Assembly (NCBI RefSeq): GCF_017348835.2
Contig: NZ_CP071375.1
Origin: Escherichia coli
GTDB lineage: Bacteria > Pseudomonadota > Gammaproteobacteria > Enterobacterales > Enterobacteriaceae
Length of the DNA: 64,000 bases
Strand: one strand, 5' to 3'
Below are positions 60,501 through 64,000 of this stretch, piece after piece. The position numbers were made by a program. Positions within the stretch are counted from its first letter, which is position 1. Each line of letters starts with the position of its first letter.

Positions 60501-63500
60501 GTCAGCAACAGCGACATCATCCGGATAAACGCAGTGCCCGTGCGCAGCACGATGACTGGCTGAAGAAAGAGATACAGCGCGTATACGATGAAAATCACCA
60601 GGTATACGGTGTGCGTAAAGTCTGGCGTCAGTTGTTACGGGAAGGTATCAGAGTGGCCAGATGCACTGTGGCACGTCTCATGGCAGTTATGGGACTTGCC
60701 GGTGTTCTCCGGGGTAAAAAGGTCCGCACTACCGTCAGCCGGAAAGCCGTTGCCGCATGCGACCGCGTAAACCGTCAGTTCGTGGCAGAACGTCCAGACC
60801 AGTTGTGGGTGGCTGATTTTACCTGGGTAAGCACATGGCAGGGCTTCGTTTATGTGGCGTTCATCATTGATGTGTTCGCCGGATACATCGTGGGATGGCA
60901 GGTCTCATCATCCATGGAAACAACATTCGTGCTGGATGCACTGGAGCAGGCGTTGTGGGCCCGTCGGCCGTCCGGCACAATCCATCACAGTGATAAAGGT
61001 TCTCAGTATGTATCGCTGGCCTACACGCAGCGGCTTAAGGAAGCCGGATTACTGGCATCAACAGGGAGTACTGGCGACTCGTATGACAACGCGATGGCTG
61101 AGAGCATCAATGGTCTTTACAAAGCGGAGGTAATACACCGTAAGAGCTGGAAAAACCGGACAGAAGTGGAACTGGCCACACTCACGTGGGTGGACTGGTA
61201 TAACAATCGACGATTGCTGGAAAGGCTGGGCCATATTCCTCCGGCAGAAGCAGAAAAAGCTTATTATGCTTCCATCGGAAATAATGATCTGGCAGCCTGA
61301 GTTCACAGATAAAACACTCTCCAGGAAACCCGGGGCGGTTCACCACTGGGATTTTGGCGCAACTTCATGGTGCAGAGGTAAATAGCATCAAGCAAAATCT
61401 CTTTTTCCGTTGTTGTCCTTATGGGACGTCTGTCTTTCTGACCGATTTCATATTGGCGAGGTAATGGGAAGTTAAGTAGAATAGCTGCGGGTGCTTGAGG
61501 CTATCTGCCTCGGGCATGAACACCAACGGCAGATAGAGAAAAGCCCCAGTTAACATTACGCGTCCTGCAAGACGCTTAACATTAATCTGAGGCTCAATCT
61601 ATGAACGGCAAATCTAGGTTAGCCTCTTACGTGCCGAAAGGCAAGGAGATGTATGGGTCCACCACATATTGCAATTTTTATTCTCTTTTAAAATATATTC
61701 CACGGGCGTCATTAGTGCGAGCGCCTTGTGGGGTCTTTTGCTGTTATACAGCACCAGATATTCCGCCAGCTTCTGGTTAAATAGCGCCAGATCTTCAAAG
61801 AGTAAAATCTCATTAAATTCAATAAACTGCTCTCTTAACGTCCGGTTAAAACGTTCACAGATAGCGTTCATTTTTGGCGTGTAGGGATAGGTCCAGAGGT
61901 GTTTGATAGCGGCTTCCTGCAGCGTTTTGTCGAAGTTTCCCAGGAACTCTTTTCCGTTATCTGTGATTATCTGGCTGATACCGACCGGGAACAACCGGGC
62001 TGCGCGGCTGAAGAAGTGATTGACGATATCACTGTTGAGTGACGGCACAGCCAGCGCCAGCGCGTAATTGCTGCATTCGTCGATCATGGTGATGACATAG
62101 CGACGCAGTTCGCCCATTCTGAGCTCAATGGCGTCCATCCCAATGAGCTCACCTGTCTTTACCGGGCGGTAGTGCTTTGGCCTGCGGGGTTTGGCAGACC
62201 GCTTTTTGACAAGCAGTGCCTTCCCCCGCGATCCCAGACGCACAGGTATCATCCGCATTTTATCATGTGCGGCAGCGATCATTCTGCCGATGGTGGAAAC
62301 ACTCGGACAGGCCAGATAGCGCTGTTCGCACCAGGGCTTCAGGCGAACAAAAATCTGCTCTTTACCGAGGTTCGGCAGCTCTGTCCTGAGGCGTCGAATC
62401 TCTTTCAGCACATCGGGATGCCAGTGTTTTTTTCGTCGCACCAGAGGTGCCTTACTGTGCGGGATTAGCCCCTCAGGTCCTTCCTTGTTCAGTAACTGAC
62501 GCCACCAGTAAAGCGTGCGGCAGGACACGCCAAAGGCTTCAGAAGCTGCAGAAATACCGTGTTTATCCCAGAAGTGCAGAGCCTTCATTCTCATTGTTGC
62601 TATATCAGCCATCACTGAAAGCCTCAACGCATAATCGGCCGTTTGGTAGTACTTAGGATAGCCAACCATCAGATGCTGCATTTGCATAGTGCAATCTCCC
62701 CTTACTTATCCGGAGGCAATTGCAATATCTCTGTGAACTTACACAGGAGAAGCAGGCTATGAAGCAGCAAAAGGCGATGTTAATCGCCCTGATCGTCATC
62801 TGTTTAACCGTCATAGTGACGGCACTGGTAACGAGGAAAGACCTCTGCGAGGTACGAGTCCGAACCGGCCAGACGGAGGTCGCTGTCTTCACAGCTTACG
62901 AACCTGAGGAGTAAGAGACCTGGCGGGGGAGAAATCCCTCGCCACCTCTGATGAATCAGGCATCCTCAACGCACCCGCACTTAACCCGCTTCGGCGGGTT
63001 TTGTTTTTTCCTGGCATTCTGGTTTACAATTCGCACGCCAGCCTGAACAACTGGCACCTGCTGCGCCAGCAGAGACAACCGATGGCGCACGATACCAAAT
63101 TATACAATTCTGATGATTCTGCCGTCTTTGCCAGCAGGCGCGGACGGTGTTTTCACGCATTCAAATCTGACTGGTACCAGCATCCCCCATGCACTGAAGA
63201 ACAGGCCGAATGGCTCATTCAGTGTTACCGCAGGCGCGGATGCGAGGTTAAAAAAGCCCTTAGCCTCGACTACCGTCACTGGATAATCTCCGTCAGGCTC
63301 CCTTACTCCGAACGGCCACCGCGTCCGTCCCGCACATTCCAGCAACGGATCTGGAGGTAATGTGCGGGTATTACTTCGACCTGTTCTGGTACCGGAACTC
63401 GGTCTGGTTATCGTTAAGCCAGGCCGTGAATCCATGCGGGTATTTCATGGCGGCAGGGTGCTGGTGGAGTCTGAACCGAAAAGCATGCGTAATCTGCCGT

Positions 63501-64000
63501 CCGGGGTCGTTCCTGCCGTTCGCCAGCCGCTGGCGGAAGATAAATCATTACTGCCATTTTTCAGCAATGAGCGTGTGATTCGTGCTGCTGGTGGCGCTGG
63601 TGCACTGTCTGACTGGTTATTACGTCACGTTAAATCCTGCCAGTGGCCTCATGGTGATTATCATCACAGCGAAACTGTCATACATCGTTACGGTACCGGC
63701 GCGATGGTGTTGTGCTGGCACTGCGACAACCAGCTGCGCGACCAGACATCCGAATCACTTGAGCAACTTGCTCAACAAAACCTGTCAGCATGGATGATTG
63801 ACGTCATCCGCCACGCAATGAATGGCATACAGGAACGGGAATTATCGCTGGCTGAATTATCCTGGTGGGCAGTCTGCAATCAGGTGGTGGACGCATTACC
63901 TGAGGCAGTATCGCGTCGTTCTCTGGGATTACCGGCGGAAAAAATCCGCTCCGTATACCGTGAAAGCGACATCATACCGGGAGAACAGACCGCCACCAGC

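What the first reader, a model, noticed from the sequence alone, without database searches (positions are those of the whole stretch)
63353..64000. Long GTG-initiated reading frame with a Cys/His cluster, missed by the ATG-only ORF track
From GTG at 63362, 4 nt after a GGAGG ribosome-binding site, a stop-free frame runs to the window end and contains CQWPHGDYHH and CWHCDNQ, suggesting a zinc-binding, possibly nuclease-like, nin-region protein. The assignment to a named family is from memory only.
Basis: partly seen in the sequence, partly recalled or inferred. Interest (0 to 1): 0.3.

Follow-up and report, generated by a model that had tools for sequence, protein, structure and literature searches.

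The report
Known prophage YdfU/DUF968 nuclease gene
The reading frame is real but ordinary: it is the first 61% of an already annotated, very common E. coli prophage gene (YdfU family, DUF968) for a predicted zinc-containing DNA-cutting protein whose function has never been tested.

Summary
GTG 63362 lies 4 nt after GGAGG, and the frame is stop-free to 64000. It contains CQWPHGDYHH (aa 93-102) and CWHCDNQ (aa 118-124).

It is the 5' 213 codons of a 349-codon gene. RefSeq annotates it with this same GTG as "DUF968 domain-containing protein" (WP_001265133.1). It is the orthologue of K-12 Qin prophage ydfU. Gene order is hokD, orf92, DUF968, rusA, Q. Matches occur in 4,753 of 5,426 complete E. 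coli genomes.

The GTG start is supported by several results:
- Codons 1-24 show 12 synonymous and 2 non-synonymous changes.
- The next in-frame ATG is ATA in K-12.
- The overlapping ATG 63360 frame is not conserved and carries stops.

That motif (aa 276-318) lies beyond the window end. The cluster belongs to an N-terminal domain with no Pfam family.

My reading is a structural zinc module (a degenerate HNH-like finger) joined to a C-terminal His-Me nuclease. The closest solved structures are P1 Ref and YbcO. Already known; low interest.

The parts
63362..64000 (+). First 213 of 349 codons of the YdfU-family / DUF968 gene. The stop codon lies 411 nt beyond the window end.
   Evidence: Translation. 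100% identity to L001 CDS 6663-7712, WP_001265133.1. Pfam DUF968 46.1 bits for the fragment and 259 bits for the full protein.
63362..63364 (+). GTG start codon
   Evidence: PGAP start. No upstream in-frame start exists. Codons 1-24 have variable sites 3/0/10 by codon position, with 12 synonymous and 2 non-synonymous changes, and ATG 63434 is ATA in K-12. Homologues of 30-55% identity align from residue 1.
63353..63357 (+). GGAGG Shine-Dalgarno sequence, inside the last codons of the upstream ORF
   Evidence: Sequence. Invariant in 6 diverged copies.
63082..63360 (+). Upstream 92-codon ORF. Its TAA stop (63358-63360) ends 1 nt before the GTG, so it is a likely translational-coupling partner.
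   Evidence: the ORF listing. PGAP hypothetical protein WP_001341388.1. phrog_1212. Variable sites 15/16/37 by codon position.
63638..63724 (+). Codons of the predicted zinc tetrad: C93 (63638-40), H101 (63662-64), C118 (63713-15), C121 (63722-24)
   Evidence: In 37 homologues, position 93 is C in 36, position 101 is H in 26 and C in 10, position 118 is C in 37, and position 121 is H in 20 and C in 17. Patterns are CHCC 16, CCCH 10, CHCH 9.
63674..63736 (+). Predicted beta-beta-alpha unit of the N-terminal domain (strands aa 105-110 and 113-118, helix 119-125)
63839..64000 (+). Start of the Pfam DUF968 match (aa 160-213, profile positions 1-51). This is a helical region, not the HNH motif.
63360..63578 (+). 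Spurious ATG-initiated 72-codon ORF in the overlapping frame
   Evidence: The ATG is ACG in 4 of 6 copies, and there are in-frame stops in L004 and L005.
62983..63010 (+). Intrinsic-terminator-like hairpin plus T-run between hokD and the orf92-DUF968 unit

Best explanation
Window 63362-64000 is the 5' 61% of a 349-codon gene of a lambdoid prophage. The gene lies in the early-right (nin-type) region, with order hokD, orf92, this gene, rusA, Q antiterminator. It encodes a YdfU-family (Pfam DUF968) protein.

Shown:
- Translation starts at GTG 63362, 4 nt after GGAGG and 1 nt after the stop of a conserved 92-codon upstream ORF.
- The protein is a DUF968 member and the orthologue of K-12 YdfU.

Predicted from the models:
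- An N-terminal domain spans aa 1 to about 155.
- A helical segment (aa 160-225) and a disordered linker (aa 227-242) follow it.
- A C-terminal His-Me (HNH) finger spans aa about 255-349 and lies outside the window.

Inferred:
- The arrangement of stop and start suggests translational coupling with orf92.
It clamps a beta-beta-alpha unit that has the HNH/treble-clef topology but no conserved catalytic His, so it is probably a DNA-binding or scaffolding module.
- Catalysis would come from the C-terminal finger. Its zinc ligands are C276, C279, C310 and H313. Its catalytic set is H287-H288, D303, H314 and H318.
- By fold, gene position and published domain fusions, the protein is most likely a metal-dependent DNA endonuclease acting on recombination or replication intermediates. 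This would resemble P1 Ref, lambda Rap/NinG and DLP12 YbcO.
For: Identity and annotation:
- The DNA is 100% identical to an annotated CDS with the same GTG start.
- The K-12 ydfU orthologue is also 349 aa.
- Matches occur in 4,753 of 5,426 complete E. coli genomes and in 186 phage records, named YdfU, DUF968 or HNH endonuclease.
- Pfam DUF968 scores 2.4e-77 over aa 160-346, and phrog_96 'HNH endonuclease' covers the full length.

Start codon:
- Codons 1-24 have 12 synonymous and 2 non-synonymous changes.
- The alternative ATG is absent in K-12.
- The alternative frame is broken.

N-terminal zinc tetrad: four positions are always Cys or His, with C/H swaps.

Fold:
- AF2 pLDDT is 88-92.

C-terminal motif:
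- H287, H288, H314 and H318 are conserved in 20 of 23 sequences, and D303 in 23 of 23.
- The catalytic residues H287, H288, H314 and H318 are all lost together in the 3 PdcB-like sequences, which keep the cysteines and D303.
- YbcO against the C-domain gives BLASTP E 0.001.

Literature:
- DUF968 and DUF1364 form His-Me group 7, with RusA and Q as neighbours and Erf/Rad52 fusions (PMC5714182).
- DUF968 is found fused to recombinases (PMC4118853).
Against: - No member of the family has been tested experimentally. YdfU appears only in lists in the 12 papers found.
- Sequence comparison of the N and C domains is not significant, though both alignments use the same register (hhalign E 0.12, BLASTP E 7).
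- AF2 models carry no metal, and I could not inspect coordinates.
- Foldseek of the full-length model against PDB gave only E of 0.5 or worse.
- The recombination role is inferred from gene position and analogy only.
- Translational coupling is inferred from geometry only.
Confidence: 0.9

Rival explanations
1. The in-window Cys/His cluster is itself an active HNH catalytic centre, so the protein would carry two nuclease sites.
Against: H108 is His in only 3 of 37 homologues, H102 in 14 of 37 and H97 in 8 of 37. The residue aligned with the metal-binding His of the C-domain is R126. No Pfam HNH-type family hits aa 1-160 even at E up to 10.
Confidence: 0.1
2. The protein starts at the first in-frame ATG (63434), and codons 1-24 are untranslated leader.
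For: ATG is the commoner start codon. The SD-to-GTG spacing of 4 nt is short.
Against: Codons 1-24 show third-position-biased variation (3/0/10) with 12 synonymous and 2 non-synonymous changes. ATG 63434 is ATA in K-12, and there is no SD before it. Residues 1-18 align in homologues of 30-55% identity and are predicted as strands with pLDDT above 90.
Confidence: 0.03
3. The conserved gene is the ATG-initiated ORF 63360-63578 in the other frame.
For: ATG 63360 lies 2 nt after the SD region, and the ORF is 72 codons long.
Against: The ATG is ACG in 4 of 6 copies. The frame has stops in L004 and L005, and its translation is poorly conserved.
Confidence: 0.01
4. The N-terminal domain is an Orf/NinB-like ssDNA-binding domain, as proposed for the Gram-positive phage proteins then filed under DUF968.
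For: PMC4118853 reports Orf-like N-termini fused to the HNH motif in Listeria and Staphylococcus phage 'DUF968' proteins.
Confidence: 0.05
5. The nuclease serves something other than recombination. Possibilities are a helper for DNA packaging or cos/pac cleavage, host-DNA degradation, or inter-phage conflict.
For: HNH domains serve many roles (PMC5714182). The P1 homologue pdcB lies just upstream of lpa-pacA-pacB and next to phd-doc. The gene here sits next to a hok toxin.
Against: In lambdoid prophages it lies in the early-right operon beside rusA and Q, far from the terminase genes. PADLOC gives no meaningful hit. P1 PdcB lacks the catalytic residues.
Confidence: 0.25

Closest known systems
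E. coli K-12 YdfU (b1560, Qin cryptic prophage; Pfam PF06147 DUF968)
   Same: Same length (349 aa) and the same GTG start context (GGAGGTAAnGTG). About 87% nucleotide identity over the in-window part. Same neighbourhood, downstream of hokD with the conserved orf92 directly upstream and a Q antiterminator gene downstream.
   Different: This is an allelic variant. Here rusA lies between the gene and Q, whereas in K-12 ydfT (Q) follows directly. Neither protein has been characterised.
Phage P1 Ref (RecA-dependent HNH nuclease, PDB 3PLW; Pfam RecA_dep_nuc)
   Different: The Pfam RecA_dep_nuc score is far below its cut-off (11.9 against 26.9 bits). Ref lacks the N-terminal domain of about 250 aa. 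RecA dependence is untested here.
DLP12 YbcO (DUF1364, PDB 3G27)
   Different: YbcO is 96 aa and consists of the finger alone. It has no equivalent of the in-window N-terminal domain.
Lambda Rap/NinG (PF05766), a branch-specific endonuclease
   Same: A His-Me finger protein encoded in the nin region upstream of Q. It is the functional model for a recombination-intermediate nuclease (PMC5714182, PMC4118853).
   Different: No Pfam NinG hit. It belongs to a different His-Me group (24 against 7).
Phage P1 PdcB
   Same: A full-length homologue (26% identity over aa 30-348) with the same N-terminal tetrad in its CCCH form. The P1 record itself notes the similarity to P76162.
   Different: Its C-terminal finger has lost H287, H288, H314 and H318. 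It lies in a different genomic context, phd-doc-pdcAB-lpa-pac.

Membership tests
Pfam DUF968 (PF06147) / YdfU family | Score above the Pfam gathering threshold (27.8 bits) | tested here: met
   259.2 bits, E 2.4e-77, aa 160-346 covering profile positions 1-171. The in-window fragment alone scores 46.1 bits.
Pfam DUF968 (PF06147) / YdfU family | Orthology to K-12 ydfU, judged by length, synteny and start | tested here: met
   349 aa in both. Downstream of hokD with orf92 directly upstream and Q downstream. About 87% nucleotide identity.
His-Me finger / HNH superfamily: C-terminal domain (outside the window) | Beta-beta-alpha fold with a zinc knuckle on each side | tested here: met
His-Me finger / HNH superfamily: C-terminal domain (outside the window) | Conserved catalytic His at the end of strand 1 and a metal-binding His or Asn in the helix | tested here: met
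   H287-H288, H314 and H318 are each present in 20 of 23 sequences, and are lost together in the PdcB-like subgroup.
His-Me finger / HNH superfamily: C-terminal domain (outside the window) | Metal-dependent nuclease activity | not testable with these tools
   No experimental paper on YdfU or DUF968 activity was found.
His-Me finger / HNH superfamily: N-terminal domain (the in-window Cys/His cluster) | Beta-beta-alpha fold flanked by zinc ligands | tested here: inconclusive
His-Me finger / HNH superfamily: N-terminal domain (the in-window Cys/His cluster) | Conserved catalytic His | tested here: not met
   H108 is His in 3 of 37, H102 in 14 of 37 and H97 in 8 of 37. R126 aligns with the metal-binding His.
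Structural zinc site (treble-clef-type): N-terminal domain | Four conserved Cys/His ligands with C/H interchange | tested here: met
   Patterns CHCC 16, CCCH 10 and CHCH 9 in 37 sequences.
Structural zinc site (treble-clef-type): N-terminal domain | Bound zinc | not testable with these tools
   Needs metal analysis of purified protein.
RecA_dep_nuc (PF16786, P1 Ref) | Pfam gathering score of 26.9 bits | tested here: not met
   11.9 bits, E 0.26. The similarity is structural only.
NinG/Rap (PF05766) and NinB/Orf | Pfam match | tested here: not met
   No hit at E up to 10.

The most novel reading that the evidence does not exclude
The N-terminal 155 residues, which no Pfam or NCBIfam model covers (PHROGs has phrog_11007, function unknown), may be a second, catalytically dead copy of the His-Me/HNH zinc finger. 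YdfU-family proteins would then be tandem 'pseudo-nuclease plus nuclease' proteins. In that reading the dead finger recognises DNA structure and directs the C-terminal active finger, like a built-in specificity subunit. In the P1 PdcB branch both fingers would be dead, leaving a pure DNA-binding protein.
Probability: 0.35. Interest if true: 0.3.

Novelty: already known. Interest (0 to 1): 0.1.

Why it matters
For the genome scan, this finding can be closed. It is a correctly recognised but already annotated prophage gene. It is the orthologue of K-12 ydfU and occurs in most E. coli genomes and many Stx, lambdoid, Klebsiella and Vibrio phages.

Its only wider value is as a reminder that a very common nin-region protein remains biochemically untested. 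It sits beside RusA and Q, in the same slot as YbcO in DLP12 and in the nin region where lambda encodes Rap.

The domain analysis gives a concrete hypothesis that is cheap to test: two zinc sites, with only the C-terminal site catalytic.

Tried and rejected
- BLASTP of the N half against the C half gave E 7. Local hhalign of the N-domain profile against the C-domain profile gave E 0.12. Both use the same register but are not significant, so internal duplication is not shown by sequence.
- phmmer of the full protein against PDB sequences found only chance C2H2 zinc-finger matches (E above 1).
- Foldseek of the full-length model against PDB gave HNH proteins at the top, but with E of 0.5 or worse.
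- NCBIfam gave no family. PADLOC gave only a chance PglZ match, so I do not treat it as a known defence protein.
- The afdb50 fold library was unavailable.
- An Orf/NinB-like N-terminus (PMC4118853) is not supported.
- I first assumed the window was collinear with strain 2015C-3163. That was wrong in detail: the window carries an extra 1,307-bp IS3-family element at 60033-61339. The gene region itself is identical.
- The 12 papers mentioning YdfU and a search on HNH, RusA and nin region gave no functional study.

Full report
**Observation**

The sequence shows GGAGG at 63353-63357, a TAAT spacer and GTG at 63362. Translation of 63362-64000 gives 213 sense codons. CQWPHGDYHH occupies aa 93-102 and CWHCDNQ occupies aa 118-124.

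The frame has an in-frame TAA at 63284 and no ATG, GTG or TTG between that stop and 63362. The first in-frame ATG is 63434. The ORF runs off the window end, so the ORF listing does not report it.

**What it is**

Megablast of 62700-64000 against complete E. coli genomes finds 100% identical copies. In strain 2015C-3163 the matching CDS starts exactly at the position of GTG 63362. It runs 1,050 nt and is annotated as WP_001265133.1, "DUF968 domain-containing protein".

The local gene order is hokD, a 92-aa hypothetical protein, DUF968, RusA, Q antiterminator, and later a tRNA Ile-Arg-Arg cluster. This is the early-right (nin-type) region of a lambdoid prophage.

The full protein matches Pfam DUF968 at E 2.4e-77 over aa 160-346. 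It also matches phrog_96 "HNH endonuclease" over its whole length. The window fragment alone reaches 46.1 bits against a cut-off of 27.8.

The K-12 orthologue is ydfU (b1560) of the Qin prophage, also 349 aa. Blastn finds the in-window part in 4,753 of 5,426 complete E. coli genomes. Tblastn finds the protein in 186 phage records, including Stx2-converting, SfII/SfIV, cdtI, Klebsiella, Yersinia and Vibrio phages. Names there include YdfU, DUF968, HNH endonuclease and hypothetical protein.

**Start codon**

I compared six copies diverged by up to 13%: the window, L003-L006 and K-12.
- Codons 1-24 have variable sites at codon positions 3/0/10, with 12 synonymous and 2 non-synonymous codon changes.
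- The in-frame ATG 63434 is ATA in K-12.
- The overlapping ATG 63360 is ACG in four copies, and its frame has stops in two.
- Homologues of 30-55% identity align from residue 1. One E. coli copy of 58% identity also starts with GTG after an SD.
- Residues 2-18 are predicted as strands with pLDDT above 90.

GTG 63362 is therefore the start, and the 72-codon ORF at 63360 is spurious.

The upstream 92-codon ORF (63082-63360) ends with TAA one nucleotide before the GTG and contains the SD in its last codons. The motif GGAGGTAAnGTG is invariant. I infer translational coupling, but this is not shown.

Pfam DUF968 does not cover the Cys/His cluster. The canonical HNH motif of the family is PCACCGKPADDPHH...D303...LCREHHNELH (aa 275-318), which lies beyond the window end.

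Among 23 full-length homologues:
- C276 is present in 23, C279 in 21 and C310 in 21. Position 313 is Cys in 14 and His in 7.
- H287, H288, H314 and H318 are each present in 20 of 23, and D303 in all 23.
- The three sequences lacking one of H287, H288, H314 or H318 lack all four. They still keep the cysteines and D303.

This pattern marks the cysteine and C/H positions as the zinc ligands and the histidine group with D303 as the catalytic set.

**The N-terminal domain (in the window)**

Residues 1-160 hit no Pfam family even at E up to 10. NCBIfam also has nothing. PHROGs has a separate family of unknown function, phrog_11007, for it.

An exhaustive HMMER search of 1.84 billion cluster representatives finds only 179 clusters at E of 1e-3 or better.

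In a 37-sequence alignment (A4), four positions are always Cys or His (with two single exceptions):
- Position 93 is Cys in 36 of 37.
- Position 101 is His in 26 and Cys in 10.
- Position 118 is Cys in 37 of 37.
- Position 121 is His in 20 and Cys in 17.
- The combined patterns are CHCC (16), CCCH (10) and CHCH (9).

Interchange of Cys and His at fixed positions is the signature of metal ligands. Q94 (37 of 37), D122 (32), N123 (28) and N140 (35) are conserved.

AF2 places C93 and H101 just before a tight hairpin (aa 105-110 and 113-118). C118 and C121 sit at the junction with helix 119-125, where local pLDDT is about 97. This is the beta-beta-alpha arrangement of zinc-bearing HNH fingers.

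Sequence comparison of the two domains picks the same register (CQWPHGDYHH against CGKPADDPHH, and LCWHCDNQL against LCREHHNEL). It is not significant, at BLASTP E 7 and hhalign E 0.12.

No His is conserved at the end of strand 1 (H108 is His in 3 of 37). R126 aligns with the metal-binding His.

I conclude that the cluster is a structural zinc site in an HNH-like but probably non-catalytic finger. Whether it arose by duplication of the C-terminal finger is open.

**Mechanism**

Three things are shown: the gene, its start and its family. The domain layout and the two zinc sites are predicted.

The function is inferred. I propose a metal-dependent DNA endonuclease acting on recombination or replication intermediates, with the C-terminal finger catalytic and the N-terminal domain binding DNA or a partner.

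Support for that inference:
- The best structural match is the recombination nuclease P1 Ref.
- The gene sits directly upstream of rusA, as ybcO does in DLP12. Lambda rap/ninG likewise lies in the nin region upstream of Q (PMC4118853).
- DUF968 is reported fused to Erf, Rad52 and RusA (PMC4118853, PMC5714182).

No experiment on any member was found. Other roles therefore keep appreciable probability, such as packaging helper, host-DNA degradation or phage conflict.

**Comparison and novelty**

The gene is an allele of a known, annotated family, so the finding itself is not new.

The only added observation is that the uncovered N-terminal half looks like a second, degenerate zinc finger of the HNH type. 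In addition, the P1 PdcB branch has lost the catalytic residues of the C-terminal finger as well. This is a modest annotation refinement and needs the checks listed under next steps.

**Verdict**

The one correction is that the motif seen is not the nuclease active site. The gene is already known, and interest is about 0.1.

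Noticed in passing
window 63082-63360 (+); K-12 locus L002, about 2307-2585 (-): A conserved 92-codon ORF sits directly upstream of the DUF968 gene (phrog_1212, unknown function; variable sites 15/16/37 by codon position). It is intact in K-12 MG1655 between rem and ydfU, but NC_000913.3 has no CDS there. PGAP annotates it as a hypothetical protein in other strains.
   Followed up: partly
window 61489-61655 (+), 61614-62687 (-), 62759-62914 (+): Rfam finds a full-length sok antitoxin RNA (102 bits) about 1.1 kb upstream of the hokD coding sequence. An IS481-family transposase ORF lies between them. The hok/sok locus therefore appears to be split by an IS insertion, which may have uncoupled toxin and antisense control.
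   Followed up: no
window 60033-61339: An IS3-family element (orfA 60087-60413, orfB 60413-61300) carries an ALIL frameshift pseudoknot at 60368-60484. It is present in the window but absent from the otherwise near-identical prophage of strain 2015C-3163. The window therefore comes from a different strain.
   Followed up: partly
window 58967-59740 (-): An alpha/beta hydrolase gene on the opposite strand has GC 0.345, against 0.496 for the window. It looks like a horizontally acquired 'moron' inside the prophage early region.
   Followed up: no
proteins P0143, P0140, P0137, P0141: Database proteins carry the YdfU N-terminal domain (about aa 1-152 or more) fused in frame to tail tip protein J, tail fibre, capsid-like or portal-like sequence. 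They look like products of large deletions in decaying prophages, or of misassembly. P0040 is a YdfU-Q antiterminator read-through fusion.
   Followed up: partly
L010 2411-3454 (phage P1 pdcB); P0190, P0220, P0261: P1 PdcB (function unknown, next to phd-doc and lpa-pacAB) is a full-length YdfU homologue. This subgroup has lost H287, H288, H314 and H318 of the C-terminal finger but keeps all the zinc cysteines. It is probably a non-catalytic derivative.
   Followed up: partly
window 2463-48750: Positions 2463-46503 are collinear (98.3% identity) with the E. coli chromosome segment asnS-pncB-pepN-ssu-elf-ompA-sulA-helD-yccA. The prophage starts next to yccA at about 45.6 kb (integrase). It lacks the IS600 copy seen in strain 2015C-3163.
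   Followed up: partly
window 62983-63010 (+): A strong intrinsic-terminator-like hairpin (AACCCGC-TTCG-GCGGGTT plus a T-run) lies between hokD and orf92/DUF968. Expression of the DUF968-rusA-Q block from upstream would need antitermination, like the tR terminators of the lambda nin region.
   Followed up: no
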